62,165 bases of DNA, filler included, from Babesia bigemina (GCF_000981445.1; 5 parts of 5 records of this genome joined end to end with filler, not necessarily neighbours in it); one strand, 5' to 3'. Shown: positions 903 to 61,696, counted from the whole stretch's first letter. Notes: generated by a model not told the origin, from the sequence alone. Numbers and translations: made by a program.

Positions 903-908
903 ATTAAC

Positions 909-26515: not shown

Positions 26516-26782
26516 AATTCCCTGGCCGTCGTAGCCTTTGGAGTCAGAGTTGAAGCCGAGGAAAGTTTCGAGGCCAGTACAGAGGTTAGTAAGGATGTTA
26601 GTAGGGTTGTTATTTAAGGTATTTTTAAGGTTTTAAATTTCATCAAATTTCTTGTCAAGCTCCCTAAGCGGCACATGGTCAGGGCAGTGGCAAGGGGTGG
26701 AAGAGGGAAGTGAAGGGTGACAAGGCACAAGTTATTGTAATGGTTTAGAAAGGTCATAGCGGTATTATGGCGGGGTAATTCA

Positions 26783-27251
26783 AGCGATGTAGAGTGGATA
26801 AAGGGGCGATGTAGAGTGGATAAAGGGGCGATGTAGAGTGGGTTAAGGGGCGATGTAGAGTGGGTAAAGGGGCGATGTAGAGTGGGTTAGGGAGCGATGT
26901 GGAGTGGATTAAGGGGCGATGTAGAGTGGATAAAGGAGCGATGTAGAGTGGGTAAAGGGGCGATGTAGAGTGGTTAAAGGGGCGATGTGGAGTGGATAAA
27001 GGGGCGATGTAGAGTGGGTTAGGGAGCGATGTAGAGTGGGTTAGGGAGCGATGTAGAGTGGTTAAGGGGCGATGAAGAGTGGGTTAAGGGGCGATGTGGA
27101 GTGGATAAAGCGGGCGATGTGGAGTGGATAAGGGGCGATGTAGAGTGGATAAGGGGCGATGTAGAGTGGGTTAAGGGGCGATGTAGAGTGGGTTAGGGAG
27201 CGATGTAGAGTGGGTTAAGGGGCGATGAAGAGTGGGTTAAGGGGCGATGTA
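26783..27251. repeat. Repeat A array upstream of gene 4, running into a gap
   Basis: Tandem units. Confidence 0.95.
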
Positions 27252-33835: not shown

Positions 33836-36800
33836 ATGACCTCTTTAAACCATAACAATAACTTGTGCCTTGTCACCCTTCCCTTCCCTTCTTCCACCTC
33901 CTGCCACTGCCCTGACCATGTGCCGCCTAGGGAGCTTGACAAGAAATTTGGTAAAATTTTGAAACTTAAAAATACCCTAAATAACAACCCTACTAATATC
34001 CTTAACAACCTCTGCTCTGGCCTCGAGAAATTCTTAGGCTTCAACTCTGAGTCCAAAGGCTACGACGGCACTGGAATTGTCTACTCTGACTTGGACTGGC
34101 TGTGTGACGGGGTGATGGGATTTTTGAGTGGCGTTCTCAGTAACATCAGAGAGCATTTAGGGCAGCATAAAGATACTTTAGACATTGCAATTAACACTCT
34201 TAACAAAAATAAACACGCCGGTAAAAACGGTTTTAATGAAGCGATTGAAAAGGTGGTCGAGGGGGTGCGGGGGTATAATGATAAGGTGAGGGAGAGTAAT
34301 GAGAAAATTAATGGCGTGATAATTAATTTTACAAAACAGATAAAAAACATTCCGGAGGCTGTACGAAACTTTAATGATCATAATAGTGTTAACCAAATTA
34401 ATGATTCAGTCGATGAGTGCATCAAGGCATCGTCGAAGTATGTAGTAGGCATGTTAACAGTACACAAAGAGATCAAAGACCTTGAGGATAATTTAGAAAA
34501 TAAGGTTAACAATACTACTAATATTATTGAATACCAATATGGGAGGTTGAGTTTAATTTATGAAAAACAAAAAGAGGATCTCCAGCAGCTGACTGAGTTG
34601 CTTGGTGAACAGCATAGAAGTGTTCAAAAACAGATAAATAAGACTACCGAAGAGAAAGTAGGTGAATATGCTGGTGAAATATATGCTAGAGTTGATAAGC
34701 TTAAATCGAATATAGTCACTGTAAATGGTACTTTGAAAACGTATGTCAGTGAATTAGAAAACTGGATCGAAATAGTGCAAAAATCTGTAGAAATGGCTTT
34801 GAAAAAAGTTGAGACAATCTTGAATCTAGCTAGTGGAAATTCGTCACCGAACTATAGAGAAGATCTTGAGAACGCCGTTAAAGCGCTACAGCAGAAATGC
34901 TTGGCTTTGTTCAAAGCATATGACACGGCAAACAAGGCTTTGCCAGGATGGATGAAAAAACTCCAAGATACAGTGGGTGTGTTAGATGATAGGATTCAGA
35001 AGGATCTGGAAACATTGCTGAGTGGGATTAAAAAAAACCTCACCGATTACCTTCGGAAAATTAATGAAGATTTCGAAGCTTTGAGAGGTAACATTGTTCG
35101 AAAAGCTCAGTCCAGTTCACTGGATAAAAGCATAGCTTTCAATTGGGAAGTCATTAAGAGAACGATTTCGGGATACGCGGCAAATATTTATAAGGAAGAA
35201 AAAAAAATAGAAAATACTGATAAATCTGGAATGTTGCATGACATTCTTACAGCTGTATTAAACTATGGTAAAAAATTCACTACTATGAGTTTCGGAAAAG
35301 AGATCTTAGATGCATGGATGAAGGAGATATTGGTGAAGAATGATAGGTGGATAACCGGCAGATTAGATACATACGTCAGAGATAATGGAATTGGTACTTT
35401 TGAGACGACCCTAAATATTACAAGTGGCAGCGCTTCCACACTCCATGAGACAATTAAGAAGAAGATTACAGCGAAACTTCAAAGCGAAATAATTCAGAAG
35501 GCTACACAAAATTACAGTGAGGTACTCGACAGTGTTGCGGGCAATTTGGGCGCTATTCACAGAGTGTGCGAGCGATTTGCCAAAGATCTTAACGAAAAGA
35601 TTGCATCGAACGGTGTTAGTGATATTGCCGAGGAAATAGCCCGGGAGATTGAGAGGGGAAACGATGGCATTTTAAAGCAAAAAGATAAAGACAGCAACCA
35701 TCGACTCGATCTCACAACTGCTATCGAACGCATTCTTCACAGACTCACTGATAGAGCCAAAGAATTCGTATCTGATGTCGAGAAGCTGGTTAAGGAATGC
35801 AAATTGGAAAATGTAGATGCTTCTATGAAACTAGCGCGAAATATCAGAGATCAACTTGATCACAAATATAGCGCCGGGAAAGCAATTGATGTAGCATTGG
35901 AGGAAGTTACGTCAATAATTGAGTTGCTAGACACCAGCCTGTCCAAGGAGGAATTTGAGGGTGAGGTTGACAAAGCGATGTTATCCTACGTGAAAGGCAA
36001 ATTGAGAAGCAAAATGGAAGCCTACAATAAACACGTAACAAACAGCAGCGATGAGAATACGTTGGCAAAGGCCATCAAAGACGTTGAAGAGAAAGCCTTG
36101 GAACCGTTCTACCAACCTGTCAACACTGACAAAATAAACGACGCAACAATACATAAGACAGCCAAAGATATTGGTGCAAACTTCGCTCAGCTGTGCGACT
36201 CAATACTAAAGGCCGCATCTACAGAGGGCCCAGACAGCGCTAAAAGAAAATTAGAGGACATGAAAAATTATTGGATCGGAAAAGATACTAACGGTAAATT
36301 AAAAACTCTTAAAGAAAACTTAAACACCCTTCAAAAGAGCACGTTGTTCCCACTGATATCCAAGACGCAGGAGATCGCTCAGCGTGTCTCCACTGAGAGC
36401 TCTCGACTAATTCGGGAACTCTCTGAGCACGTAAACCAATTGATTGATAATGCTACAAATACTGTAACTCACGACATGCAACGGAGATATGTGATTTTCA
36501 TGAGATATCAACTTGAAGAGTTTTCCAATAATGTAACTAAGGTACTTACCGATTTCCCTGAGGCCATTAACAAGGACGCTGATAAGAACCACAAAGGATT
36601 TATGAAGGTTATCCAAACGAAATTAGCAACCAGTACGATTAACAGCACTCTAAATTTGGCCGACAAACCAGTCACTTTAACGACCAAAGTTACAATTTTT
36701 TTTTCAACTCTGCTTGATACCTTGAAACCCAACCGTGAGATCATGCCTAGCGACAAGCTTTCTGATATCAGAGAAAAACTTAACACTCTCCTCTCTGATC

Positions 36801-39070
36801 TCTCCCGTTTCAACCGCCCCTTCGTCCGCAACCTCACCGCACTTTCGTCCCTCCTCGATTCCATCCGCCCCGCATCCTACGCCGACGACAGCAACCCCCT
36901 GCTCGACTGTCTTAAAAAGGGCGTGCAGATGATGTGCGAGGAGCTCAAAAAGGCGTACGTGAGCGTGTATGATGGTGAGACGTTTGGTGCCAACCTTGTC
37001 GAAAAAGAGAAATTAACGCCGTATGGCACCCAGTTGTCCAAGGTGTTAATGTCCATCTTGGAGATATACAACGAAGATTTGAGGTACTTGAAAAATCGTA
37101 CCATCCACAAATGGTCAACAAGTAGAATATATGCTGGTAGCAGTTTAGGCACATTTTTGCAAAATAGCGGCTACAGCGTGTCCAACAATGAGACCGAGCA
37201 GAATGGTCACTTGGACAAGAATGTCGACGGCACAAAGATCATGAGTCTGCTTGTAGGCGAAAATTACGGTCACGTTTACCACAAGAATAAGAATTACAAA
37301 TTCCAGCTTGAGAACCTATACGACTGCCTTACGACTTATTACCGCATTCGTCACATCTCCACTGCAGGGTCGAAGAAGTCGCCGTGTAATATCTACGAGA
37401 TGCTCTGCTGGCTTACGAGTTTGCGATACAGTTCAGTGTACTCCGATTTTATTTCCGACGATTTCAGTGATTTGTTCGATAAGCGTGAGATGAAGAACGC
37501 AGAATCAAATGACCCCGATTTCATTCCAGTTGACGACCTCGGCGAACTCTCTTTGAAAGCCTGCCCTCAACGGATCACGTACGGTGAAATACACGATGCA
37601 ATTGTACACGTTACCGCCGTTTCATCTACAGTCTTAACTACCATCGTCGGCTATGGAGACGCCCACGCAACGTACGCTGTCGATTTTTATAGTAACGCCC
37701 TGAGACTGAGTTACCCATCGTCAAGCGTGGATTGCCTCAACATGTTGATCGAGGTCCTCGGTCGGCTGTTGCCTGTCTTCACGTTCCTACATGGCCAGTG
37801 CAGCATTACCGCTAAACACTACGGATGGTCCAACTGCTTGTACGGAAAAGGCGTCAAATGGTCAACGTGGCCGTGTGATGAGCACTCGAAGACAGAAGTT
37901 GAGTGCCATGCGAAATCACCTCTGCAATCCTTCCTCCGCGATTGCCTACCTGGTTACCTTCCTCATCAAGTAGAATCGGTCGGATGCAAATCTGACTGTA
38001 AAACGTGTCCCAAAAGCCTACCCGGTGCGCCATGTATAACACCACTTGGGTTCAGAAGCTTCACCGGTAGCAAGAAGACAGGCAAAGACCTATGTAACGT
38101 GCTAACCAAATTCATGGGTAACGGGGTTGCTTCACCCTTGTTCAGCCTCACTCCCAAACCGCCGAAAACGTTGGCAGAGCACTTCGGCTTCGCCCTGTCC
38201 TTAGTTAGGAACTGGCAGAGAGAGCGCAGTTATAGCCTTAAAACTAAGATGGTTTCCACAATAGAGGTTGTGTCAATTGGCCTCTGCAAAAACGCCAACA
38301 ATTTCACCAACGCTCTCAGCAATGCGTATGGAGACAACAAGGTAGGACATGAAAGCAACGGACATCGCAGCGGTACAGAGGCCGATCTGGCCAGCTTGTC
38401 GACAACAGAATCATGCGTCTATCCGAACAAAAATGTTCATTGTGCTCCCTACCTCCAATCGCTGTACAGCAATTCCTATATGTATGTGGCAGAGAAGCAC
38501 GCCAGCGCCTACTTGTCTTGGGCACTATACCTACCATGGAACCTACATTCCTTCCTCAAAAGTTTACTTGATGCGTTCAGTAATATTGTCTGCCAAGACT
38601 GGGGATGCAGCAGATGCGCCCACGGTAGTGCTTGTAGACGTGGTAATCACGGCGTAGATTACAATTGTCAGTGCAGAGGTATAATTGAGTGCCGTGGCGT
38701 ACAAAGCACATTATACAGCTTCGGATTCATGTTCGGCAATTCTGAAAAATTAGCAGTTAATGAAAGCAAGAGATATTGCCACAATTTCTACAAGCAGTTG
38801 CGCAACGTTCTCAATTCACAATATTTCACCAAATTATTTGAAGAATGTGACAACTTCATTTGGACAATCAGAGAACCGTTCACCTATCTAGTGCTCGCAT
38901 TCTGGTCACTATCCCTCTTCTACCTCATCTGCGTAATGGTTGGCAGACTGGATGTGCTCCACATCAAATCGCATTTACACTCTCCCTCATCACATCGCAT
39001 CGCCGCGCAGTCACTACTTGCTGCTGGACGTGTTAACAAGCTTAACAGGGTGTTTTATCTGCAACCGTAA
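33836..39070 (+). CDS. ves1: VESA1-like protein (gene 6; GYGD subtype); the only copy whose leader ATG is open into the body; chimeric tail
   Basis: 1744-aa ORF from MTSLNH...; internal MGFL ATG at 34115. Confidence 0.87.
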   Translation: MTSLNHNNNLCLVTLPFPSSTSCHCPDHVPPRELDKKFGKILKLKNTLNNNPTNILNNLCSGLEKFLGFNSESKGYDGTGIVYSDLDWLCDGVMGFLSGVLSNIREHLGQHKDTLDIAINTLNKNKHAGKNGFNEAIEKVVEGVRGYNDKVRESNEKINGVIINFTKQIKNIPEAVRNFNDHNSVNQINDSVDECIKASSKYVVGMLTVHKEIKDLEDNLENKVNNTTNIIEYQYGRLSLIYEKQKEDLQQLTELLGEQHRSVQKQINKTTEEKVGEYAGEIYARVDKLKSNIVTVNGTLKTYVSELENWIEIVQKSVEMALKKVETILNLASGNSSPNYREDLENAVKALQQKCLALFKAYDTANKALPGWMKKLQDTVGVLDDRIQKDLETLLSGIKKNLTDYLRKINEDFEALRGNIVRKAQSSSLDKSIAFNWEVIKRTISGYAANIYKEEKKIENTDKSGMLHDILTAVLNYGKKFTTMSFGKEILDAWMKEILVKNDRWITGRLDTYVRDNGIGTFETTLNITSGSASTLHETIKKKITAKLQSEIIQKATQNYSEVLDSVAGNLGAIHRVCERFAKDLNEKIASNGVSDIAEEIAREIERGNDGILKQKDKDSNHRLDLTTAIERILHRLTDRAKEFVSDVEKLVKECKLENVDASMKLARNIRDQLDHKYSAGKAIDVALEEVTSIIELLDTSLSKEEFEGEVDKAMLSYVKGKLRSKMEAYNKHVTNSSDENTLAKAIKDVEEKALEPFYQPVNTDKINDATIHKTAKDIGANFAQLCDSILKAASTEGPDSAKRKLEDMKNYWIGKDTNGKLKTLKENLNTLQKSTLFPLISKTQEIAQRVSTESSRLIRELSEHVNQLIDNATNTVTHDMQRRYVIFMRYQLEEFSNNVTKVLTDFPEAINKDADKNHKGFMKVIQTKLATSTINSTLNLADKPVTLTTKVTIFFSTLLDTLKPNREIMPSDKLSDIREKLNTLLSDLSRFNRPFVRNLTALSSLLDSIRPASYADDSNPLLDCLKKGVQMMCEELKKAYVSVYDGETFGANLVEKEKLTPYGTQLSKVLMSILEIYNEDLRYLKNRTIHKWSTSRIYAGSSLGTFLQNSGYSVSNNETEQNGHLDKNVDGTKIMSLLVGENYGHVYHKNKNYKFQLENLYDCLTTYYRIRHISTAGSKKSPCNIYEMLCWLTSLRYSSVYSDFISDDFSDLFDKREMKNAESNDPDFIPVDDLGELSLKACPQRITYGEIHDAIVHVTAVSSTVLTTIVGYGDAHATYAVDFYSNALRLSYPSSSVDCLNMLIEVLGRLLPVFTFLHGQCSITAKHYGWSNCLYGKGVKWSTWPCDEHSKTEVECHAKSPLQSFLRDCLPGYLPHQVESVGCKSDCKTCPKSLPGAPCITPLGFRSFTGSKKTGKDLCNVLTKFMGNGVASPLFSLTPKPPKTLAEHFGFALSLVRNWQRERSYSLKTKMVSTIEVVSIGLCKNANNFTNALSNAYGDNKVGHESNGHRSGTEADLASLSTTESCVYPNKNVHCAPYLQSLYSNSYMYVAEKHASAYLSWALYLPWNLHSFLKSLLDAFSNIVCQDWGCSRCAHGSACRRGNHGVDYNCQCRGIIECRGVQSTLYSFGFMFGNSEKLAVNESKRYCHNFYKQLRNVLNSQYFTKLFEECDNFIWTIREPFTYLVLAFWSLSLFYLICVMVGRLDVLHIKSHLHSPSSHRIAAQSLLAAGRVNKLNRVFYLQP

Positions 39071-39192
39071 TCGTACTCACGTGTTTACTATCTACACTCA
39101 CCTAGCATCACCTACTCACCTATACAACTAATTGTTGTCTAATGTTTTTAATTACTCATTGATCGTTGTATGTGATTGTGTAGTAGTTAACT

Positions 39193-39473
39193 AAAGTGGT
39201 GACCAAAGTGTTGACCAAGTTGCTGACCAACGTGTTGACCAATGCCACGACCAAAGTGCTGACCAAAGTGCTGACCAATGTGCTGACCAAGGTGCTGACC
39301 AAGGTGCTGACCAAGGTGCTGACCAAAGTGGTGACCAAGGTGCTGACCAAGGTGCTGACCAATGCCATGACCAAGGTGGTGACCTATGTGCTGACCAATG
39401 CCATGACCAACGTATTGACCAATGCCACGACCAAGGTGTTGACCAAGGTGCTGACCAACCACCTGACCAAAGT
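39193..39473. repeat. Repeat C array
   Basis: 12-bp units. Confidence 0.92.
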
Positions 39474-39477
39474 GATG

Positions 39478-39597
39478 GTTACGGCAGCGGTGACATGGTC
39501 ACGGCAGCGATGACATGGTCACGGCAGCGATGACTGTGTTACGGCAGCGATGACATAGACACGGCAGCGATGACATGGTCACGGCAGCGATGACAGT
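39478..39597. repeat. Repeat B array
   Basis: 20-bp units. Confidence 0.92.
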
Positions 39598-39619
39598 GGT
39601 GACTTAAGTGGTATTTATC

Positions 39620-39744
39620 ATCCACTCCACATCGCTCCCTAACCCACTCTACATCGCCCCTTAACCCACTCTACATCGCCCCTTTATCCACTCTACATCG
39701 CCCCTTTACCCACTCTACATCGCCCCTTAACCCGCTCTACATCG
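39620..39744. repeat. Repeat A array running into a gap
   Basis: Tandem units. Confidence 0.92.
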
Positions 39745-39844
39745 NNNNNNNNNNNNNNNNNNNNNNNNNNNNNNNNNNNNNNNNNNNNTTAATTAATTAA
39801 NNNNNNNNNNNNNNNNNNNNNNNNNNNNNNNNNNNNNNNNNNNN
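39745..39844. other. Artificial assembly gap
   Basis: N44-TTAATTAATTAA-N44. Confidence 0.98.
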
Positions 39845-40586
39845 GTGGTGACCAAAGCGGTGACCAGAGTGTTGACCAATGCCATGACCAAGGTGCTGAC
39901 CAAAGTGGTGACCAATGTGCAGACCAAGGTGCTGACCAAGATGCTGCCCAATGTGTTGCCCAAGGTGGTGACCAATGTGCAGACCAAGGTGCTGACCAAT
40001 GCCACAACCAACGTGCTGACCAACGTGCTGACCAATGTGCTGACCAATGTGCTGAACAAAGTAGTGACCAATGTGCTGACCAATGCCATGACCAATGTGC
40101 TGACCAAAGTGTTGACCAAGCACCTGACCAACGTGCTGACCAACGTGCTGACCAATGCCATGACCAAGGTGCTGACCAAAGTGGTGACCAATGTGCAGAC
40201 CAAGATGCTGCCCAAAGTGTTAACCAATGTGCTGACCAAAGTGCTGACCTATGTGCTGACCTATGTGCTGACCAGAGTAATGACCAACGTGTTGACCAAT
40301 GCCATGACCAAAGTGGTGACCAATGTGCTGACCAAAGTGCTGACCAAGGTGCTGACCAAAGTGGTGACCAATGTGCTGACCAACGTGGTGACCAATGTGG
40401 TGACCAAGATGCTGACCAATGCCATGACCAAAGTGCTGACCAAAGGGGTGACCAATGCCATGACCAACGTGGTGACCAACGTGCTGACCAAGGTGCTGAC
40501 CAATGTGCTGACCAATGCCATGACCAACGTGGTGACCATTGTGCTGATCAAAGTGCTGATCAAAGTGCTGACCAACGTGTTGACCA
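39845..40586. repeat. Repeat C array (long)
   Basis: 12-bp units. Confidence 0.95.
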
Positions 40587-40594
40587 TGTTAGTT

Positions 40595-41460
40595 GTCACG
40601 GCAGCGATGATATGGTTACGGCAGCGATGAGATGGACACGGCAGCGATGACATGGCGACGGCAGCGATGACATGGTTACGGCAGCGATGACATGGTCACG
40701 GCAGCGATGAGATGGACACGGCAGCGATGACATGGCGACGGCAGCGATGACATGGTTACGGCAGCGATGACATGGACACAGCAGCGATGACATGGTCACG
40801 GCAGCGATGACATGGTCACGGCAGCGATGACATGGTTACGGCAGCGATGATATGGACACAGCAGCGATGACATGGTCACGGCAGCGATGACATGGTCACG
40901 GCAGCGATGACATGGTCACGGCAGCGATGACATGGTAACGGCAGCGATGGCATGGTCACGGCAGCGATGACAGTTGATGGTTACAGCAGCGATCACTGGT
41001 CACGGCAGCGATGACATGGACACAGCAGCGATGACATGGTCACGGCAGCGATGACATGGTCAAGGCAGCGATGACATGGTCACGGCAGCGATGATATGGT
41101 CACGGCAGCGATGACATGGTCACGGCAGCGATGATATGGTCACGGCAGCGATGACATGGTTACGGCAGCGGTGACATGGTTACGGCAGCGGTCACATGGT
41201 CACGGCAGCGGTGACATGGTCACGGCAGCGATGACATGGTCACAGTAGCGATGACATGGTCACAGTAGCGATGACATGGTCACGGCAGCGATGACATGGT
41301 CACGGCAGCGATGACACGGTTACGGCAGCGATGACATGGACACGGCAGCGATGACATGGACACGGCAGCGATGACATGGACACGGCAGCGATGACATGGT
41401 CTCGGCAGCGATGACATGTTTACGGCAGCGATGACATGGTTACAGCAGCGATGAAATGGT
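40595..41460. repeat. Repeat B array, largest in the window (about 40 copies of GTCACGGCAGCGATGACATG)
   Basis: Near-strict 20-nt periodicity. Confidence 0.97.
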
Positions 41461-41479
41461 GACTTAAGTGGTGATTATC

Positions 41480-42218
41480 ATCCACTCTACATCGCCCCTT
41501 AACCACTCCACATCGCCCCTTTACCCACTCTACATCGCTCCCTAACCCACTCTACATCGCTCCCTAACCCACTCTACATCGCTCCTTTACCCACTCTACA
41601 TCGCCCCTTTACCCACTCTACATCGCCCCTTAACCCACTCTACATCGCCCCTTAATCCACTCTACGTCGCCCTTTAACCCACTCTACATCGCCCCTTTAA
41701 CCACTCTACATCGCCCCTTTACCCACTCTACATCGCTCCTTTACCCACTCTACATCGCCCCTTACCCACTCTACATCGCCCCTTACCCACTCTACATCGC
41801 CCCTTTACCCACTCTACATCGCCCCTTTACCCACTCTACATCGCTCCCTAACCCACTCTACATCGCTCCTTTATCCACTCTACATCGCTCCCTAACCCAA
41901 TCTACATCGCTCCCTAACCCACTCTACATCGCTCCTTTAACCACTCTACATCGCCCCTTTACCCACTCCACATCGCCCCTTAATCCACTCTTCATCGCTC
42001 CCTAACCCACTCCACATCGCCCCTTTAACCACTCTACATCGCCCCTTAACCCACTCTACATCGCTTCCTAACCCACTCTACATCGCCCCTTAACCACTCC
42101 ACATCGCCCCTTTACCCACTCTACATCGCTCCCTAACCCACTCTACATCGCTCCTTAACCCACTCTACATCGCTCCCTAATCCACTCTACATCGCTCCCT
42201 AACCCACTCTACATCGCT
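41480..42218. repeat. Repeat A array upstream of gene 7
   Basis: Tandem units. Confidence 0.95.
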
Positions 42219-42486
42219 CGAATTACCTCGCCTTAATACCGCTATGACCTCTATAAACCACAATAATAACTTGTGCCTTGTCATCCTTCACATCCCCTCT
42301 TCCACCTCTTGCCACTGCCCTGACCATGTGCCGCCTAGGGAGCTTGACAAGAAATTTGACAAAATTTAAAACCTTAAAAATACCTCAAATAATAACCCTA
42401 CTAACATCCTTAATAACCTTTGTACTGGCCTCGAAACTTTCCTCGGCTTCAACTCCACTTCCAAAGGCTACACTGGCGAGGGGATT

Positions 42487-45400
42487 GTGTACTCTGACCT
42501 GGATAGGCTGTGTGACGGGGTGATGGGATTTTTGTATGGTGTGCTTATGGATGTCAGCGAGAAACAGCCTTACAGTGTGGGTAAAAGAGAGATAAATGAA
42601 GCTGTTGAAATGCTTAAAAAGAATTTATCCACCGGGCGTGAGGGTTTTAGTGTCATTGCGCAGGTGGCGGGGAAGGTGCGGGAGTATAATGAGAGAGTTA
42701 AGCAAAGTAACGATGATATGAAAACCATAATAAACAATATGGACAGAGACATGAAAACGCTTCAAAATGAGGTAGGTAACATTCTACGAAATAATCCTGA
42801 TTCAGAAAATTTTGATGAAGTCAAGCAGGCTGAAACCTTGGTCACTAAGCTGGCCGACGAGTATGCAAAAAAAGGTATGAATTTCGATAGTAATTTTGTC
42901 ATAAGAGAGATAAACGCATGGAGGACAGGTGCTAATGTTGAGCCAATACAGCAATTCAAAGACATAAATTCTGACCTGAGATTAAAAATCACCCATGCAA
43001 GAAACAATATCACGCATGAGGCTGAGAGGCTTACGACACTGTCAAAGAAGCAGAAAGAGAACTTGGCTGCGATGACTAGTATGATTAGTAATAAGCTCAA
43101 AACGCTTAAAAGCTGTGTCAATGAGCGAATTTTGCAAGATGTCAATGAGCTTGTTAGCAAGGTGAATGAGAAAGTTGCGGCAATTTTGCAATTGCTACAG
43201 AGGATCAGCGCGACGCTTTGGAATTATGTTAATGAATTGGGGAGGTGGATTAAGGATGCGGAAGGAATTGTGACTCAAGCAATTAAGGACACGAAAGAAA
43301 TCGAGCAAAAAGGACCGGGTTGGCAAAACCAGGATAAGATCAATGAGAAAGCAAAGGAGTTCAAGGACAAGGCTACGGATCTCTACTGGAAATTTGAGGG
43401 TGCGAAGCGGTCAGTTGAGGAGGGCGTAAAAAGCGCGAAAATTGAGAATGTTGAGCAGTTGACTACGTGGAAGAAGGCAGGCGACGCGGCCGTTACGAAG
43501 GCGAAGAGACAAGGTGCGGCAATTGGTGAGATGGTTCAGACTAAAGGTGCAGGTAAGGAGGATATTTATAAGTTAGCTAACGATATGAAAACAAAGGCTG
43601 AGAATCTCAGAGCGGCGGCGAAGCATATTAAGAAAGAGATTGGAGGATGGGTTAAAACAGCGCTTACGCAGGTGAAGGATATGGATGAGGCGCTGAAGAA
43701 GGATTTGTATAAGGTGAAGGAGGCTGTTAGTAGGCAGGTAGAAGGGATTAAGACGGCGATTGGGAAGTTGTATAAAGTGGTTGAGACTGGAGACACGGAA
43801 GGGGCAACGCACAACTCAATGGTCGAGATGGTCGACCTTATAAAAAATAAGATAAAGACCATTGAAGGGGTAGGCGGAAGGTTCGTAACTAAACCAACCG
43901 GGCTGTGGGCAATCAGTCAGCAGGTTCCGACCTACGTTAAGACGTTTGAGAACTTTGATGCGACGGTCGCTGATTGGGTGAGGGAGATTGTGAGAAGGAT
44001 GGTAGCAAATAATGGTCCCCTGCATGAGCATATTGACATGTATGCTTCCGAAATAGAAACTCTGCAAAATAACCGTGAACAACTGCTTCCTAAGGTGAAG
44101 GAACAAATCATTACCAAGGTCATAGCCAAGGTAAAAGAAATTGCGTTAGCTCACAAAGCGGATCTTGCCACCAATGGAAATGTGGAAACCGATTTAAAAT
44201 TGATTAAAAGATTCCTTGATCACTTTAATGGGCAAAGTCTACAGAATGGTGTTGACCATATAGTCAGTGCTATAGAGAAGGCAGGTGAATTACAAGTGGA
44301 TCCCTCCAAACAAAATGTTATACACAACTCAGATCTGAAGAATGCCGTAAATATAGTTTTGCATGTTTTTTCAATGGCTGCTGAAAAAATGGGTGAGCAA
44401 ATTCAGAAGCTTGCTACTGACTGCCATCTCGGCAAAATCAACGAGGCATTGACCACGGCTAGCGATTTTGAAGAGAAATTGAAACAAGCTACAGGAAACC
44501 AATCCGTTGGAACATCCAGCAGTAGGATTAACTTTGCCCTCGCCGTCGACAACGCGATCAGGGAGGTGACGGAAGAGCTTGGGAGAAAATTGATTACCGC
44601 CGCTGGTGATACAGTCACGCTGGAAACAACGACTGCCTTCTCCAAATACGATGGCTTTGTCGACCAAGACAAAGTGTCCTCCCTTTCCAACTCTGACTTC
44701 GAAGCCATCAAAAGCGCAGGCTCCCTCCCCGCGGCGATCGGTGCGATAAAGACGCAGGTGACGAGTAAGCTTAACGAAGGTAAACTAGCATCAGAAATAG
44801 ATGCCTCTGACACTTTCACCGATCCCTTCGGTAAAATCACCGAAAAACTCAAAACCATCGCCGGGCTGGTTGACAGCGACAAAAGTAATCTGCGTCCAGC
44901 ACCGGGAGATGGCCAGAAGAACGGCGTGAACAACTACCTGAATGATATTACAAGTATGCTTGGCAAAACTCCCGTCGACCTCAAGTCAGATATAAAAGGG
45001 AGCCACCCAAATGTCAAAGGCCTCGAGACGATAAAGAGTGAAATCGACTCCGCGCTCGACGGGATTAAAAATAAAGCTGACGCAGAATTTGATGCCGCAA
45101 AAGCAACTACAGACAGCGGAAACATATTCACAACTTTGTCCACCGCGATCACTACGAATCTCAAAGACCTTTTGGCAGCTTTCGAGGAGGCAGGCAAACA
45201 AGTGAACAAACATTTGCAAAAATTAAAAACCAACATCGGCAAGAAGGAACATGGCGCTGATGCTGCAGTTGGTACGCTGCAGAAAATCCACGACAATCTT
45301 GTTACCTTGTTGAACGGTGACATTAGCCAAGTCATCAATGACGCCACTGCCTTCAAAAAACAAGCCAATCAATTGCGTGATAAAACAATCGGAGCACTCA

Positions 45401-48222
45401 ACGGACACGTCGAAGATGAAGTTAAAAAAGCCGAAACCGCCCTCATCACCCAGGCCAACAAAAACTACGTCACGTCCGTCAAAGAGATGCTGACTGCCTT
45501 CGCCGACAAGGTGCAGAAGGAACTGAAGCCCCTCCCCGGCGAGATCGACACCGACAGGCAGCACGGCTTTAAGGGTTTCATGCGGACGTTGCAGGGGACG
45601 TTCAACGGTGATGAGACTTTGACTGACAATATTGACAAACTCAAGGGTCTCGTAAGTGAACTGTCAGGGACTGTGAATCACAAGGAGGCGTTCGCAAAAT
45701 TGTCGCAAAAATTAAAGGAGTTCTGCTCACCACTTCACGACTACCTCAAAGAAGAGATCAGAAGGGTTCACGCAGCGAATCAAGAGAAAACAAATCCCAA
45801 GCCATCTGGCGACGAACAGCTCTACACCTCCAAACTCGAAGCTGCACATATCGCGCTCAACAATCTACTCGATCACATTAGTAATCACCGCTACAACCAC
45901 GAAGTGCCCGCCTTGCTTGACATCCTCTCCACTAAAGTCGATGGTCTGCACCCCAAGACATTCAATGAACCGAGCACTCCGCTGCTTGACGGCGTTGGCA
46001 AGGGTGTTCACGGGTTCGTTAGTGAACTGGACAAGGCGTACATCTCGACCTACGACAGTGAGACCTTTGGCGGTGAGATGTTCGAGAAAGATAAATTAAC
46101 AGCCTATGGCACAAAATTCGCCAAAATATGCTTCACCGTGGTATGCACCCTCAACTCCACGTTGACCGACTTGACGCACAATTGCAAGAGTCTACGTGGA
46201 CAGCAAATTAATAAGTCCACCGACGTGGGAAGATCATTCGTCGGCCACGGCTACGCGGTCTCCGATGCGGCGCTGCAGAACGGCGAGTTGCAAAACAAAC
46301 CGACAGTGGCGGGAGAGAACGTTGCTAAGCGGTTGCTGCTACCAATTCGCGGCGCCGACGAGAACCAACACCTTAAATGGTGTGAATCGAACGAGCAGAG
46401 AAAAGCCGACCACTTCCACGTCTTCGACGCCATTGACTGCATATTCAGCCACTTCGAGCAGTACAACGAACTCTGCCACCTGCTCACGGCCTCAGCGAAG
46501 CAGCACCCCTGCTCCGTGTACGACATATTGATCTGGCTCAGCGGTTTCCCGTACACTGCAGTATATGCTACGATGAGTGATATAACCATCAGTGATCTAT
46601 TTGACAACCCGCATAAGAAGGCGGCCGGCGACGACGAACTTGAGCTCACATCGACTGACATGGCAGCCCAATCCATAACGGCGCACCCCCGAAACATATC
46701 GTATACTTACGTACGTAAAGCCGTGGACCATATCTGTGCGACGTCCTATGACGTATTGACTGCCGTTGTCGGCACTGGCGACTCCAGGACCGTTTACGCC
46801 TCCGACTTCTGCAACAACTCATTCAACTTCCATTACCCATCGGATCCGTCGGACTGCCTGGACATGCTGCTGGACCTACTGCGCCGATTGTTGCCCGTGT
46901 TCCGGTTCTTGGAACTGCAGTGTAACATCAAGCCTGAACACCACGGTTGGTCACAGTGCCGCTACGGGAGGGACATCCCTACAACCAAATCGCAGTGTAA
47001 CGAGCACTCAAGCGAAGAAGCAAGCGGACAAGCAAAGTGCCAAGTAAACTGCCAGCCAACGTCCCCCCTTATGTTATACCTCAGTGACAGCCTCCCTGGC
47101 CATCTGCCGCACCAACTGCAGTCAGTGGGATGCAGAGCGAAATGCAGCACCTGCCCTAAGAACCAACCAGGGCAACTGTGCTTGATTCCTCTCGGATTCA
47201 AGGGCTTCTCGGGAAGCTCCAAAACGGGCAGACAGTTGTGCGAAGCAATCAAGATCTTCATCGGTACAGGCTTAATATCCTCACTGATGTGCCTCCTGCC
47301 GAAGCCACCATCCACGCTGCCCGAGCACTTCCAGTTTGTATTCACGTTGGTTGGTGCGTTTAATGCTAACAGAGATGTCAACTCAAATGCCGTCAATGCT
47401 GCGTTTGTGAAGGCAATAAGGAAGCAGTCCATCGACTTGTATGCGGAGCCATCAGAACTCACAGGCGCGCTTCAGAAGGCTTATAACAGCAACGAGCAGC
47501 ACGACGGTACGGAGCATCCCAAAGCTTCAGATGCCGATTTGTCAACATTGTCTAAAGCAAAGACATGTAATTATCCGAACAAGGATGTTCACTGCGCTCC
47601 GTACCTGTCCACGTTGTACAGTGATGCATACCACTACGCTGCCGAGAAGCACGCCGGTCTCTACCTGTCATGGGCAGTGTACTTACCGTGGTCGTTTTGG
47701 CAGTGTCTTGAATCTTTGTTCAAAGCGTTTACCAACATATCCTGTCAGGATTGGGGATGTAGTCGCTGCACGCACGGCACGGCTTGTAAACGGGGTAAGC
47801 ATGGCGCTGCCTATAATTGCCAGTGCAAAGGCCTCGTTGAATGCCGCGGTGTCATAAGCACGTTATATAGTTTCGGATTCACGTTTGGCAATCCAGCGAC
47901 GCTTTCAGCTGCAGAGGGAAAAAGGTATTGCCACAATTTCTACAGACAACTCCACAATGTATTAAATTCCAACTACTTCAGAACGCTGTTCGAAAAATGC
48001 GACGAATTCATTTTCACCATCAGACAGCCGTTCATATGGATGACCGTGGCGCTCTGGTCACTATCTCTCTTCTACCTCCTTTGCGTAATGGTTGGCAGAC
48101 TGGATGTGCTCCACATACGCTCACACCTGAGGATACCGTCATCACACAAGATAACGGCGCAATCATTGTTGGCTGCAGCGCAAGTCGGAAGGCTTGCCAA
48201 GATATCGTATCTACAACCGTAA
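42487..48222 (+). CDS. ves1: VESA1-like protein (gene 7; GTGD subtype); first ATG at 42523; in-frame TAA in leader at 42367-42369
   Basis: 1911-aa ORF with conserved motifs, TM and ...AKISYLQP tail. Confidence 0.85.
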   Translation: MYSDLDRLCDGVMGFLYGVLMDVSEKQPYSVGKREINEAVEMLKKNLSTGREGFSVIAQVAGKVREYNERVKQSNDDMKTIINNMDRDMKTLQNEVGNILRNNPDSENFDEVKQAETLVTKLADEYAKKGMNFDSNFVIREINAWRTGANVEPIQQFKDINSDLRLKITHARNNITHEAERLTTLSKKQKENLAAMTSMISNKLKTLKSCVNERILQDVNELVSKVNEKVAAILQLLQRISATLWNYVNELGRWIKDAEGIVTQAIKDTKEIEQKGPGWQNQDKINEKAKEFKDKATDLYWKFEGAKRSVEEGVKSAKIENVEQLTTWKKAGDAAVTKAKRQGAAIGEMVQTKGAGKEDIYKLANDMKTKAENLRAAAKHIKKEIGGWVKTALTQVKDMDEALKKDLYKVKEAVSRQVEGIKTAIGKLYKVVETGDTEGATHNSMVEMVDLIKNKIKTIEGVGGRFVTKPTGLWAISQQVPTYVKTFENFDATVADWVREIVRRMVANNGPLHEHIDMYASEIETLQNNREQLLPKVKEQIITKVIAKVKEIALAHKADLATNGNVETDLKLIKRFLDHFNGQSLQNGVDHIVSAIEKAGELQVDPSKQNVIHNSDLKNAVNIVLHVFSMAAEKMGEQIQKLATDCHLGKINEALTTASDFEEKLKQATGNQSVGTSSSRINFALAVDNAIREVTEELGRKLITAAGDTVTLETTTAFSKYDGFVDQDKVSSLSNSDFEAIKSAGSLPAAIGAIKTQVTSKLNEGKLASEIDASDTFTDPFGKITEKLKTIAGLVDSDKSNLRPAPGDGQKNGVNNYLNDITSMLGKTPVDLKSDIKGSHPNVKGLETIKSEIDSALDGIKNKADAEFDAAKATTDSGNIFTTLSTAITTNLKDLLAAFEEAGKQVNKHLQKLKTNIGKKEHGADAAVGTLQKIHDNLVTLLNGDISQVINDATAFKKQANQLRDKTIGALNGHVEDEVKKAETALITQANKNYVTSVKEMLTAFADKVQKELKPLPGEIDTDRQHGFKGFMRTLQGTFNGDETLTDNIDKLKGLVSELSGTVNHKEAFAKLSQKLKEFCSPLHDYLKEEIRRVHAANQEKTNPKPSGDEQLYTSKLEAAHIALNNLLDHISNHRYNHEVPALLDILSTKVDGLHPKTFNEPSTPLLDGVGKGVHGFVSELDKAYISTYDSETFGGEMFEKDKLTAYGTKFAKICFTVVCTLNSTLTDLTHNCKSLRGQQINKSTDVGRSFVGHGYAVSDAALQNGELQNKPTVAGENVAKRLLLPIRGADENQHLKWCESNEQRKADHFHVFDAIDCIFSHFEQYNELCHLLTASAKQHPCSVYDILIWLSGFPYTAVYATMSDITISDLFDNPHKKAAGDDELELTSTDMAAQSITAHPRNISYTYVRKAVDHICATSYDVLTAVVGTGDSRTVYASDFCNNSFNFHYPSDPSDCLDMLLDLLRRLLPVFRFLELQCNIKPEHHGWSQCRYGRDIPTTKSQCNEHSSEEASGQAKCQVNCQPTSPLMLYLSDSLPGHLPHQLQSVGCRAKCSTCPKNQPGQLCLIPLGFKGFSGSSKTGRQLCEAIKIFIGTGLISSLMCLLPKPPSTLPEHFQFVFTLVGAFNANRDVNSNAVNAAFVKAIRKQSIDLYAEPSELTGALQKAYNSNEQHDGTEHPKASDADLSTLSKAKTCNYPNKDVHCAPYLSTLYSDAYHYAAEKHAGLYLSWAVYLPWSFWQCLESLFKAFTNISCQDWGCSRCTHGTACKRGKHGAAYNCQCKGLVECRGVISTLYSFGFTFGNPATLSAAEGKRYCHNFYRQLHNVLNSNYFRTLFEKCDEFIFTIRQPFIWMTVALWSLSLFYLLCVMVGRLDVLHIRSHLRIPSSHKITAQSLLAAAQVGRLAKISYLQP

Positions 48223-48369
48223 TCATCGTCACATTTGTAACTCACGTAAACTCACCTAACATCACCTACTCACCTAACAAACAAACGTAGTCTAATGTCT
48301 CGAATTACTCTAGCGGCGACCTGTGAACTAGATAGCGTTGAGATTAAGTGATGACTGAACGACAAAGCT

Positions 48370-49100
48370 GAGTGCTAAGCAAGCAACCAGGCAAAGTGCT
48401 AAGCTGGCACACAGGCAAAGCGCTAAGCTGGCAACCAGGCAAAGTGCTAAGCAAGCAACCAGGCAAAGTGCTAAGCAAGCAACCAGGCAAAGTGCTAAGC
48501 TGGCAACCAGGCAAAGTGCTGAGCTAGCACCCAGGCAAAGTGTTAACCTAGCACCCAGGCAAAGTGCTAAGCTAGCACACAGGCTAAGTGCTAACCTAGC
48601 ACACAGGCAAAGTGCTAAGCTAGCAACCAGGCGAAGCGCTAAGGTGGCACCCAGGCAATGTTCTAAGCTAGCAACCAGGCAAAGTGCTAAGCTAGCAACC
48701 AGGCAAAGTGCTAAGCAAGCACGCAGGCAAAGTGCTAGGCTGGCAACCAGGCAAAGTGGTAACCTAGCAACCAGGCAAAGTGGTAAGCTAGCAACCAGGC
48801 AAAGTGGTAACATAGCAACCAGGCTAAGTGCTAACCTAGCAACCAGGCAAAGTGGTAAGCTGGCAACCAGGCAAAGTGTGAACCTAGCAACCAGGCAAAG
48901 TGCTAAGCTAGCAACCAGGCAAAGTGCTAAGCTGGCAACCAGGCAAAGTGCTAAGCTAACACGCAGGCAAGGTGTTGACCTAGCAACCAGGCTAAGTGTT
49001 AACCTAGCACCCAGGCTAAGTGATAAGCTGGCAGTCAGGCAAAGTAATAAGCAAGCACTCAGGCAAAGTGCTAACCTAGCAACCAGGCAACGTGGTGAGC
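48370..49100. repeat. Repeat D array (24-bp)
   Basis: Tandem units. Confidence 0.93.
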
Positions 49101-49600
49101 TGGCGGATGAACCGTAATTTGGTGGGTTGGTTGTTGCGTTGAGTTAAGCGTTGACTGTGAGAGGTGTTTGCGTTGCGCATTGAGTCAGTGTAACGTGAGG
49201 CTGGGTGATTGGTCGCTAACGTAGGCGGTCGTGAAGGCCGCGGCGAGTGACCTAAGTCGTGTGTTGCGAGTCACTGGCAGCGTGGCGTAATCCGCGTTGG
49301 GCTGGTTAAGTAGCTTTATAGGCAGCGATCTAGCGATTGTCAATATCACATTTAGGCGCGTAGCCGACACGCTCCGCCAGCATGGCGCCGATACCGCGGC
49401 TCGTAGCACGGTGCTGCTGCACTGTGGGAGTTGAGCTCACGGGGTTCGCTGCAATTTCAATGACGTTGCGAATAGTGAATAATTTAGAGTGACGGTTGAT
49501 GCTGATGACATGCGTCGCGTCAGGTGTGGCCGTGGTATCCTGGGCAGCGTGGGTGTCAGTGGCCTGGGCTGGGGGGATACAGCGGTGAGGGTAGGTGTTG
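49100..49600. other. Conserved unique non-coding block, copy 2
   Basis: Homologous to 20300-20810 in reverse orientation. Confidence 0.6.
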
Positions 49601-50454
49601 ATGAGGGGAGTGGGAGCGGCAGTGGTAGTGTTGTGTTGGTGAGTGCGTTGCTAGGTGATTGATGTTAGCAGGTTGAGGGGAGTGGTAGCGGCAGTGGTAC
49701 GCGTTGCAGTTGGTGAGTGCGTTGCTTAGGTGATTGATATGTTCGCAGGTTGAGGGGACTGGGAGTGGCAGTGGTACGTGTTGCAGTTGGTGAGTGCTGC
49801 TTGAGTGATTGATATGTCTGCAGGCTGAGGGGACTGGGAGCGGCAGTGGTACGTGTCGTAGTTGGTGAGTGCGTTGCTTAGTGATTGATATGTTCGCAGG
49901 TTGAGGGGACTGGGAGTGGCAGTGGTACGTGTTGCAGTTGGTGAGTGCTGCTTGAGTGATTGATATGTTCGCAGGTTGAGGGGAGTGGAAGGGGCAGTGG
50001 TACGTGTTAGTTGGTGAGTGCGTTGCTAGGTGATTGATACGTTTGCAGGTTGATGCGACTGGGCGCGGCAGTGTACGTGTTGCAGTTGGTGAGTGCTTTG
50101 CTAGGTGATTGATATGTTTGCAGGTTGAGGGGACTGGGAGCGGCAGTGGTACGTGTTGCAGTTGGTGAGTGTTTGCTTAGGTAATTGATATGTTTGCAGG
50201 CTGAGGGGACTGGGAGCGGCAGTGGTAGTGTTGCAGTTGGTGAGTGCGTTGCTTAAGTGATTGATATGTTTGCAGGTTGAGGGGAGTGGGAGCGGCAGTG
50301 GTACGTGTCGTAGTTGGTGAGTGCTGCTTAGGTGATTGACATGTTCGCAGGTTGAGGGGACTGGGAGGGGCAGTGGTACGTGTTGCAGTCGGTGAGTGCG
50401 TTGCTTAGGTGATTGATGTCTGCAGGTTGAGGGGACTGGGAGGGGAAGGGGAAG
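49600..50454. repeat. Repeat E array (about 76-bp unit, about 11 copies)
   Basis: Unit GTGAGTGCGTTGCTTAGGTGATTGATATGTTCGCAG-GTTGAGGGGACTGGGAGCGGCAGTGGTACGTGTTGCAGTTG. Confidence 0.92.
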
Positions 50455-50862
50455 ATGGGTAGAGGACGATGCTTGAATTGCAATAATAATTGTAATCCGC
50501 CAGCTGTATGTATTTGCTGCCCATGGTGTTGTGACAAATGTAATGGTATCAGCTGTGATCAATGTTCGGAGGCAAACAGACCCCTCAGACTACGGAAAGT
50601 ATGCAACGCTTCTCAATGTGAACTTAATAAGGGCACGTGTACAAAAATTGGCAGTTGTCAATGTAAGTGTTGTGAGCAGAAACGCTCTACTTCCGGTCAC
50701 TCCTCTACATTCAGCGCTCATTCTAAGACCGACACTCAACCGCATACATCACCCGCCCCTTACATCATCGTCCCCGTTGCCATCATCATCCTCGTCGTCT
50801 GCGTCATGGTCTACTTCCGCATCCGGCCGTTCCACAGGGTGCGGTATCTACTGCGCAGCTGA
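50455..50862 (+). CDS. Small cysteine-rich single-pass membrane protein (135 aa), copy 2
   Basis: 18 Cys align with 19407-19814; TM plus YFRIRPFHRVRYLLRS; same context ...GAGGGGAAG/AAGGGGAAG-ATG. Confidence 0.85.
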   Translation: MGRGRCLNCNNNCNPPAVCICCPWCCDKCNGISCDQCSEANRPLRLRKVCNASQCELNKGTCTKIGSCQCKCCEQKRSTSGHSSTFSAHSKTDTQPHTSPAPYIIVPVAIIILVVCVMVYFRIRPFHRVRYLLRS

Positions 50863-51244: not shown

Positions 51245-51555
51245 GCTGACCAATGTGCTGACCAATGCCACGACCAACGTGTTGACCAATGCCATGACCA
51301 GAGTGCTGACCTAGAACCTTACCAAAGTGCTGACCAAAGTGCTGACCAATGCCATGACATAAGTGGTGACCTACCACCTGACCAAAGTGCTGACCAAGAT
51401 GCTGCCCAAAGTGCTGACCAACGTGGTGACCAATGCCATGACCAACGTGGTGACCAAAGTGGTGACCGATGTGTTGACCAACGTGTTGACCAAGGTGCTG
51501 ACCTATGTGCTGACCAATGCCATGACCAACGTGGTGACCAAGCACCTGACCAAGT
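51245..51555. repeat. Repeat C array
   Basis: 12-bp units. Confidence 0.92.
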
Positions 51556-51559
51556 TGAT

Positions 51560-51705
51560 GGTCACAGCAGCGATGACATGGTCACGGCAGCGATGACATG
51601 GACACGGCAGCGATGACATGGACACGGCAGCGATGACATGGTTACGGCAGCGATGACATGGTTACGGCAGCGATGTCTTGGTCACGGCAGCGATGACATG
51701 GTCAC
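51560..51705. repeat. Repeat B array
   Basis: 20-bp units. Confidence 0.92.
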
Positions 51706-51721
51706 CAGAGTAGTGATTATA

Positions 51722-51958
51722 ATCCACTCTACATCGCTCCTTTACCCACTCTACATCGCCCCTTAACCCACTCCACATCGCCCCTTTATCCACTCCACAT
51801 CGCCCCTTAACCCACTCTACATCGCCCCTTAATCCACTCTACATCGCCCCTTTGTCCACTCTACATAGCCCCTTTATCCACTCTACATCGCCCCTTAACC
51901 CACTCTACATCGCTCCCTTATCCACTCCACATCGCTCCCTAACCCACTCTACATCGCC
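51722..51958. repeat. Repeat A array running into a gap
   Basis: Tandem units. Confidence 0.93.
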
Positions 51959-55194: not shown

Positions 55195-55316
55195 TCGTAC
55201 TCACGTGTTCAATATCTACACTCACCTAGCATCACCTACTCACCTAACTTATGAATTGTGCTTTAATCTGTTGCATCACTCATTAATCGTTGTATGTGGT
55301 TGTGTAATAGTTAACT

Positions 55317-55510
55317 AAAGTGTTGACCAATGTGCTGCCCAATGCTGTAACTAAGGTGCTGACCAATGCCATGACCAACGTGCTGACCAAAGTGCTGACC
55401 AAGGTGCTGACCAAGGTGCTGACCAACGTGTTGACCAAAGTGGTGACCAACGTGCTGACCAAGGTGCTGACCAAAGTGGTGACCAAAGTGGTGACCAACG
55501 TGTTGACCAA
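55317..55510. repeat. Repeat C array
   Basis: 12-bp units. Confidence 0.92.
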
Positions 55511-55516
55511 GTTGAT

Positions 55517-55676
55517 GGTCACGGCAGCGATGACATGGTCACGGCAGCGATGACATGGTCACGGCAGCGATGACATGGTCACGGCAGCGATGACATGGTC
55601 ACGGCAGCGATGACAGTTGATGGTTACGGCAGCGATGACAGTTGATGGTCACGGCAGCGATGACAGCGATGACAGT
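55517..55676. repeat. Repeat B array
   Basis: 20-bp units. Confidence 0.92.
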
Positions 55677-55709
55677 GGTGACCAAGCACCTGACCTAAGC
55701 GGTGATTAT

Positions 55710-56057
55710 TACCCACCCTACATCGCCCCTTTACCCACTCTAAATCGCTCCCTAATCCACTCTACATCGCCCCTTAACCAACTCTACATCGCTCCCTTAT
55801 CCACTCCACATCGCTCCTTTACCCACTCCACATCGCCCCTTTACCCACTCTACATCGCTCCCTTACCCACTCTACATCGCTCCCTAACCCACTCTACATC
55901 GCCCCTTTATCCACTCTACATCGCTCTTTTATCCACTCTACATCGCTCCCTAACCCACTCCACATCGCCCCTTAATCCACTCCACATCGCTCCTTTATCC
56001 ACTCTACATCGCCCCTTTGTCCACTCTACATCGCTCCTCTACCCACTCTACATCGCT
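55710..56057. repeat. Repeat A array upstream of gene 9
   Basis: Tandem units. Confidence 0.93.
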
Positions 56058-61387: not shown

Positions 61388-61511
61388 TCGTACTCACGTG
61401 TTTACTGTCTACACTCACCTAGCATCACCTACTCACCTATACAACTAATTGTTTTCTAATGTTTTGAATCACTCATTAATCGTTGTATGTGATGGTGTAG
61501 TAGTTAACTGA

Positions 61512-61691: not shown

Positions 61692-61696
61692 GTTGA

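What the first reader, a model, noticed from the sequence alone, without database searches (positions are those of the whole stretch)
39071..42486. Stereotyped repeat grammar (C or D, B, junction, A, leader) in front of ves genes: a VSG-70-bp-like cassette archive
Seen: every intergenic region that can be read has the same polarised order. A 12-bp (or 24-bp) array is followed by a 20-bp array, a junction like GGTGAC(T/C)TAAGTGGTGATTAT, a 21-22-bp array and the leader. Copy numbers vary widely (B from 2 to about 40) while order and orientation never change. Established: B. bovis ves1 switches by segmental gene conversion, and trypanosome VSG cassettes are bounded by 5' 70-bp repeats and a conserved 3' end. 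Inference: the arrays and 3' box are homology boundaries or silencing elements of interchangeable cassettes. I do not know of this grammar being described for Babesia.
Basis: partly seen in the sequence, partly recalled or inferred. Interest (0 to 1): 0.82.

Follow-up and report, generated by a model that had tools for sequence, protein, structure and literature searches.

The report
Headless antigen-gene archive with repeat spacers
In the cattle parasite Babesia bigemina, copies of the ves1b surface-antigen gene that lack their normal front end lie head-to-tail behind a fixed series of short DNA repeats and share near-identical patches, and they likely form a silent reserve for antigenic variation.

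Summary
The repeat order is real: 9 of 9 readable junctions read C-type units, B, junction, A, on the strand of the ves genes, and 7 of 7 uncut A arrays abut the leader. Corrections: the finding spans an artificial join between two contigs (39745-39844); only 1 of 3 D arrays leads into B; the junction looks like decayed C units. The genes are B. bigemina ves1b. The stronger result is in the genes: none in the window has the family's N-terminal 100-150 codons, the leader frame is broken in 6 of 7 copies, yet 6 of 6 complete bodies are open (10,696 codons) and carry near-identical patches shared with other copies. Conserved 5' and 3' blocks bracket a variable 5-kb body, as in Anaplasma msp2 functional pseudogenes. 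So 'cassette archive' is likely right, but the arrays are unlikely to be VSG-type 5' conversion boundaries: conversion from there would import a broken leader, and visible patch edges lie inside the coding sequence. A is an inverted relative of B and G-rich on the template strand; the function of the arrays is untested.

The parts
33836..39070 (+). ves1b copy g6; the only one of 7 whose leader frame is open into the body; lacks the family N-terminal domain
39071..39195 (+). 3' box (three ACTCAC(C/G)T motifs, 54 bp) plus the 70-bp tail type that leads into C
   Evidence: triple motif at 8 of 8 ves stops
39196..39458 (+). C array, 12-bp unit, 21.9 copies
39475..39600 (+). B array, 20-bp unit, 6.2 copies
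39601..39621 (+). junction J (decayed C-type units)
39622..39744 (+). A array, 22-bp unit, cut by the contig end
39745..39844 (.). artificial 100-base pad joining two separate contigs; not biology
39845..40586 (+). C array, 61.8 copies, starts at the contig edge
40595..41460 (+). B array, 43.1 copies
41461..41481 (+). junction J; centre of the predicted B/A fold-back
41482..42217 (+). A array, 33.6 copies; inverted relative of B; G-rich on the template strand (G4Hunter -1.05); telomere-like CCCT(A/T)(A/T) words
42218..42417 (+). leader: conserved as DNA, second half resembles eroded N-domain coding sequence, in-frame stop in this copy
42418..42534 (+). conserved 5' block shared with N-complete ves1b genes; likely 5' exchange anchor
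42418..48222 (+). ves1b copy g7, open body of about 1930 codons, patchwork of tracts near-identical to other truncated-start copies
48223..48370 (+). 3' box plus the second tail type, which leads into D
48371..49101 (+). D array, 24-bp unit, 30.5 copies; not followed by B
49102..50862 (+). optional module: 500-bp block, 75/76-bp repeat with splice-like signals, small Cys-rich membrane-protein gene (50455-50862)
51245..51958 (+). C-B-J-A, cut by the contig end
32513..33835 (+). 3' box, D (29.3 copies), C-type units, B (5.1), J, A (13.7), leader start: the only D-to-B spacer
55195..56245 (+). 3' box, C, B, J, A and doubled leader in front of copy g9 (body to 61387)
61388..62165 (+). 3' box, C, B, J, A, cut by the window end
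1..1703 (-). 3' box, C (55.9), B (2.0), J, A (38.4, cut) behind copy g1 (1704-7227)
7228..8386 (-). 3' box, C, B (2.2), J, A between copies g2 (8387-14118) and g1
14121..14674 (-). A array in front of the leader of g2, cut by the contig end
17637..21163 (-). long spacer between g4 and g3: 3' box, D, block, 76-bp repeat, small gene, decayed B, C, B, J, A, doubled leader
21164..27251 (-). copy g4 with leader and A array (26784-27251, cut); recombinant at the end of its 3' box

Best explanation
These are head-to-tail B. bigemina ves1b copies that lack the family's N-terminal domain, keep an open variable body between conserved 5' and 3' blocks, and likely serve as a silent, subtelomeric donor archive for segmental gene conversion. 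Shown: truncation, broken leader frame in most copies, open bodies, shared near-identical patches, one exchange point at the 3' box, and the fixed C-B-J-A order. Inferred: productive conversion into a complete gene would start at or behind the conserved 5' coding block, not in the arrays. The order is fixed because one spacer was duplicated along with the gene, and its minisatellites grew and shrank. The arrays most likely act on the archive itself, giving long shared homology for unequal exchange among array copies and, through the G-rich A strand and the B/A inverted arrangement, a break-prone or protein-bound site; that last step is untested.
For: Family: 333 hits, the best 120 all B. bigemina or B. 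ovata where named; two truncated-start relatives are labelled ves1b in the supplement of PMC5660447. Truncation: the first 70 aa of 4 complete proteins had no hit better than E 0.14 in the part of the output shown; homology starts at residue about 100-150. Leader frame broken in 6 of 7, while 6 of 6 complete bodies have no stop in 10,696 codons and align to each other by blastn mainly over about 330 bp at the 5' end (82-91%) and 170-290 bp at the 3' end. Variants by codon position in 5 leaders: 7/11/7 in the first 35 leader codons against 9/5/18 in the 34-codon block (Fisher p 0.059). Patches: g7 has 60-aa tiles 87-100% identical to five other truncated-start proteins; 39 of 55 truncated-start proteins share such a tile with another one, 20 with two or more partners; 4 of 30 N-complete proteins share tiles of 85% or more with truncated-start ones, including about 420 aa in P0080. 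Two C-termini make up 42 of 55 truncated-start proteins, against 24 different ones among 30 complete. g4 switches from one 3' type to the other at the end of the 3' box (box 100% to g6, tail 86-89% to g5/g7). Position: 16 genes I picked by tag from the proteome table of PMC4066756 lie within 150 kb of chromosome ends and point inwards, if its coordinates are concatenated (with contig lengths); none of the 8 whose sequence I hold has the N-terminal motif.
Against: Peptides from another, non-clonal strain map to truncated-start genes too (16 rows), so silence is not shown. Exchange with complete genes is rare in this sample (13 of 727 tiles, against 79 of 727 among complete genes) and its direction is unknown. 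g6 and 5 database proteins have an open leader frame. 'Starts at the block Met' (48 of 90) is only an annotation proxy for truncation: g6 is annotated so although its leader is open. The truncated set was collected with g7's C-terminus and is biased to its kin. At least 30 complete copies exist, so no single expression site is required. Nothing here tests the function of the arrays.
Confidence: 0.55

Rival explanations
1. One reading: the arrays are VSG-70-bp-like 5' homology boundaries; an expression site carries the same arrays and whole cassettes, leader included, are converted into it.
For: Arrays stand before 7 of 7 readable leaders, vary in copy number and keep orientation, as 70-bp repeats do (PMC4858185, passages). 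The 3' box is an exchange point in g4. Six copies have an open leader that could be an alternative N-terminus.
Against: 6 of 7 leaders are broken, so most whole-cassette conversions would be unproductive. 14 of the 18 proteome rows labelled BbigVes1b map to proteins with the canonical N-terminus, the other 4 are not in my set. Visible patch edges are inside the coding sequence. In B. bovis conversion tracts average about 109 bp and need only microhomology (PMC7485966, passages).
Confidence: 0.13
2. The arrays are cis-regulatory: B and A carry one core motif (GCGATG) in opposite orientations around J and form a promoter or silencer for in situ expression of short ves1b forms, with the leader as 5' UTR.
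For: A resembles the reverse complement of B (p 0.008 in one of 12 unit comparisons); fold-back gain beats composition-matched controls at 9 of 9 junctions (0/30 or 1/30; not independent). The leader is conserved as DNA without codon bias. Peptides map to truncated-start genes. B. bovis switches in situ as well.
Against: Copy number varies 20-fold. The genes are head-to-tail, unlike the divergent LAT with a spacer under 500 bp. The untranslatable 5' block keeps a coding signature, which fits exchange with translated genes better than a UTR (p 0.059).
Confidence: 0.15
3. The spacer is neutral: minisatellites arose in a duplicated subtelomeric unit and do nothing; the copies are by-products that stay open only because they are young or receive sequence from expressed genes.
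For: Common descent alone explains order and polarity; C, B, A and the leader share short words, as expected from local slippage and inversion. No array function was shown.
Against: Bodies are too divergent to be young yet have no lesion in 32 kb, while 5 leaders of one type hold 3 distinct lesions in under 1 kb. Unit lengths are tightly kept (A 22 bp in 169 of 202 intervals, C 12 bp in 190 of 216). 16 of 30 B. ovata hits also start at the block Met.
Confidence: 0.17

Closest known systems
Anaplasma msp2/p44 functional pseudogenes (PMC11946796, passages)
   Same: Variable region between conserved 5' and 3' blocks, recombination within the repertoire, copies that cannot give the full protein alone.
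   Different: Bodies are about 5 kb, in tandem, with minisatellite spacers; at least 30 complete genes exist rather than one expression site; silence not shown.
Trypanosoma brucei VSG archive with 70-bp repeats (PMC4858185, passages)
   Same: Oriented repeats of variable number before archive genes near chromosome ends; conserved 3' end.
   Different: Three or four different short GC-balanced arrays in fixed order, not one AT-rich unit; the downstream gene is headless, so the repeat cannot be the productive 5' boundary for most copies; presence at an expression site unknown.
Babesia bovis ves1 LAT and unpaired truncated ves1 (PMC2034396; PMC7485966; PMC9047050; passages)
   Same: Same gene superfamily; truncated copies were proposed as functional pseudogenes; mosaic exchange; G4 motifs enriched near ves loci.
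   Different: Head-to-tail rather than head-to-head; truncation at a stereotyped point with a shared leader; no such repeat grammar in the passages seen.
BbigVes1b as described in PMC4066756 (sections 22 part 1 and 24, passages, supplements)
   Same: Same family; poorly assembled loci (37-44% 'no assembly') and almost no positional orthology fit arrays that break assemblies.
   Different: The text I saw does not separate complete from headless copies and does not mention the arrays; its figures could not be viewed.

Membership tests
BbigVes1b | Homology to named ves1b proteins, conserved C-terminal domain | tested here: met
BbigVes1b | Canonical N-terminal domain (KKLTDCPENL start, as) | tested here: not met
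   absent from the window; these are truncated members
VSG 70-bp-repeat cassette system | Oriented repeats upstream of archive genes | tested here: met
   7 of 7 readable leaders
VSG 70-bp-repeat cassette system | Same repeats in long tracts at the expression site | not testable with these tools
   no genome, no DNA for complete genes
VSG 70-bp-repeat cassette system | Repeats are the 5' limit of conversion | tested here: inconclusive
   visible patch edges are intragenic; leaders mostly broken; no switched clones
VSG 70-bp-repeat cassette system | AT-rich unit of about 70 bp | tested here: not met
   units of 12, 20, 22 and 24 bp in windows of 46-55% GC
VSG 70-bp-repeat cassette system | Conserved 3' end used as exchange boundary | tested here: met
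   3' box at 8 of 8 stops; switch of type at its end in g4; one case
msp2/p44-type functional pseudogene archive | Truncated copies with conserved 5' and 3' blocks around an open variable region | tested here: met
msp2/p44-type functional pseudogene archive | Recombination within the repertoire | tested here: met
   39 of 55 share near-identical tiles
msp2/p44-type functional pseudogene archive | Transcriptionally silent | tested here: inconclusive
   peptides of another strain map to both classes
msp2/p44-type functional pseudogene archive | Conversion into a single expression site | not testable with these tools
   30 complete copies seen; direction of exchange unknown
B. bovis LAT | Divergent gene pair with an intergenic region under 500 bp | tested here: not met
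   all neighbours head-to-tail; 4 complete spacers of 863-3359 bp

The most novel reading that the evidence does not exclude
B. bigemina runs a two-tier antigenic-variation system not described for an apicomplexan: subtelomeric tandem arrays of headless ves1b donors feed complete genes through a conserved coding anchor, and the C-B-J-A spacer is a dedicated element, a quasi-palindrome with a G-quadruplex-prone arm, that starts recombination or seeds silencing at every cassette.
Probability: 0.25. Interest if true: 0.85.

Novelty: new variant of a known kind. Interest (0 to 1): 0.62.

Why it matters
Only 35% of B. bigemina ves1 genes are paired like the B. bovis LAT (PMC4066756), so how this parasite varies its surface is open. 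Splitting ves1b into complete and headless copies names candidate donors, recipients and anchors, and turns the question into a direct long-read test. It also explains why these loci fail to assemble, and warns that gene counts mix complete genes with copies that cannot make the full protein.

Tried and rejected
No genome held, so no genome-wide test of arrays away from ves. Sequencing runs: one DNA run with a share of 0.06, no RNA holder listed; laid on leader and 5' block it gave 345 short contig records, with many variants over the leader start and the block and no cover at 42338-42367; presence of the B-J-A junction in that run remains untested. The B pattern had 0 matches in metagenome contigs. 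No Rfam match at gathering score. Pfam gave only sub-threshold helical families for 7 of 11 proteins and nothing for 4. Idea that B plus J is amplified N-terminal coding sequence (reads like HGxGSD against HG(N/G)G): junction scores p 0.07-0.55 at 9 of 9 junctions, commonest unit p 0.037, a hand-picked rare unit p 0.007, C, A and D not significant: kept as a weak lead only. C and D look alike by eye but top units scored no better than shuffles (p 0.86 same strand); one C variant matched reverse B (p 0.002). Rescue of the broken leaders by splicing: no acceptor behind the stop seen by eye in g7; not tested further. A is telomere-like only loosely: CCCTAA 45 times but CCCTAAA once in 4.9 kb (B. 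bovis repeat CCCTA3-4). Canonical G4 motifs with loops of 1-7 occur in 2 of 11 A arrays, with loops of 1-12 in 10 of 11. Earlier scan notes: nothing. Literature searches without a description of the arrays; subscription journals are not searched, and PMC3294438 is not held.

Full report
What the window is. Four identical 100-base pads cut the window into five pieces of 14674, 12477, 12393, 12114 and 10107 bases. Two window-encoded proteins are listed on contigs of 12393 and 10107 bases, so the pieces are separate contigs. The finding's span crosses the pad at 39745-39844. Nine long ORFs are ves1-like; the C-terminal part of the gene behind the finding's arrays (g7) gave 333 hits, and of the best 120 all named ones are B. 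bigemina or B. ovata. Two relatives without the canonical start are labelled ves1b in a supplement of PMC5660447 (2 of 3 accessions found carry the label), and complete relatives are labelled BbigVes1b in a supplement of PMC4066756.

The grammar. Tandem Repeats Finder gives 11 A, 9 B, 8 C and 3 D arrays. At 9 of 9 junctions the order is C-type units, B, J, A on the strand of the genes; 7 A arrays run into the leader and 4 are cut by contig ends. Of 8 ves stops, all carry a 54-58 bp box with three ACTCAC(C/G)T motifs (24 of 25 hits outside arrays); 5 then lead into C and 3 into D through two different 70-bp tails. Only 1 of 3 D arrays continues to B; two lead into a module with a small gene. 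J looks like decayed C units. Since the spacers are homologous, the fixed order needs no explanation beyond common descent (inference).

The genes are headless. Complete ves1b proteins begin with a conserved motif and reach the GLExFLG block after 130-300 residues. The window holds no match to the first 70 residues in the output shown (cut); similarity begins at residue about 100-150. The leader's second half aligns weakly with that region of complete proteins (best E 4e-4), so it is likely eroded coding sequence. Its frame is broken by a stop or a frameshift in 6 of 7 copies. Against this, g6 and 5 database proteins are open. Among 90 B. bigemina-type proteins, 5 have the canonical start, 7 the leader start, 48 start at the block Met, 15 start elsewhere before the block and 15 lack it; annotation starts are only a proxy.

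The bodies are kept open and exchanged. Six of 6 complete copies have no stop over 10,696 codons, though blastn aligns them mainly over about 330 bp at the 5' end and 170-290 bp at the 3' end, with a few 65-75% stretches in the last 1.5 kb. In 5 aligned leaders, variants fall 7/11/7 on codon positions in the first 35 codons and 9/5/18 in the block (p 0.059): the block keeps a coding signature even where it cannot be translated from the leader. g7 shares tiles of 87-100% identity with five truncated-start proteins, in two separate stretches with P0014; g2 and g6 each share an internal patch with one; g1 has none, and g4 and g9 only single tiles. 39 of 55 truncated-start proteins share a tile with another (263 of 1322 tiles). 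Only 4 of 30 complete proteins share tiles with truncated ones (13 of 727 tiles; 79 of 727 with other complete ones). So the array copies form a pool that exchanges mostly within itself and sometimes with complete genes; direction is unknown. g4 changes 3' type exactly behind the 3' box.

Where such copies lie. The proteome table of PMC4066756 gives coordinates. Sixteen genes that I picked by locus-tag prefix lie in the last 150 kb or first 16 kb of chromosomes, all pointing inwards, if the coordinates are concatenated (with contig lengths). None of the 8 whose sequence I hold has the canonical start. The same table shows peptides for them in another, non-clonal strain, so they are either expressed, or donors of expressed patches, or share peptides with that strain's genes. 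14 of 18 rows labelled BbigVes1b map to N-complete proteins.

What the arrays look like. A resembles the reverse complement of B around the core GCGATG (p 0.008, one of 12 comparisons). A single strand across B-J-A is predicted to fold back on J (z -3.3 on 20 shuffles, of which the tool lists 1 as folding as well); the gain exceeds shuffled-A controls at 9 of 9 junctions, which are not independent. All 11 A arrays have mean G4Hunter scores near -1.0, with the G-rich strand as template; B, C, D and the coding regions do not. G4 motifs are reported as enriched near B. bovis ves loci (PMC9047050, passages). None of this shows function.

Verdict. Works like an msp2-type donor archive laid out like a subtelomeric VSG array; it is a member of neither system. 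The archive reading has about 0.55; the arrays' own role is open. I found no description in searches.

What I saw of papers: PMC4066756 passages, section 22 part 1 of 2 and section 24, supplement legends and table rows, no figures; its Fig. 3 gene models and Figs S3 and S6 may bear on truncation, transcription and breakpoints. Passages only: PMC10463595, PMC2034396, PMC6630957, PMC5660447 (supplement searches; its GFF file unreadable), PMC12064010, PMC9047050, PMC4858185, PMC7485966, PMC11946796.

Noticed in passing
window 50455-50862 (+) and 19407-19814 (-): Small Cys-rich protein with a C-terminal membrane segment; 12 homologs, all B. bigemina hypothetical proteins; three carry locus tags next to ves1b genes (0305030, 0309680, 0111400). 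Possibly an unnamed ves1b companion family.
   Followed up: partly
window 49602-50442 (+) and 19824-20284 (-): 75/76-bp tandem repeat whose unit reads as a short GTGAGT...CAG intron plus a piece of about 40 nt, in front of the small gene; looks like repeated mini-exons that do not keep frame.
   Followed up: no
window 39071-39124 and the 7 other 3' boxes: The triple ACTCAC(C/G)T motif is a splice-donor consensus on the opposite strand; an antisense spliced RNA or a 3' UTR motif are both possible.
   Followed up: no
window 49321 (+) and 20578 (-): A single copy of the B/A core motif sits at the same place in the 500-bp block behind D.
   Followed up: no
window 50932-51110 (+), 18886-19300 (-): One or two short copies of another membrane-segment ORF lie between the small gene and the C array.
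   Followed up: no
window 17637-17805 (-) and 56057-56226 (+): Two copies (g3, g9) have a doubled leader start and keep 30-90 more codons of the N-domain than the other five.
   Followed up: partly
B. ovata hits: 16 of 30 start at the equivalent block Met and none has the canonical start, hinting at the same headless class in B. ovata.
   Followed up: no
window 52059-52236: The first 180 bases of the fifth contig have stops in the frame of g8 and may be poor sequence or a real lesion; g8 was left out of the intact-body count.
   Followed up: no
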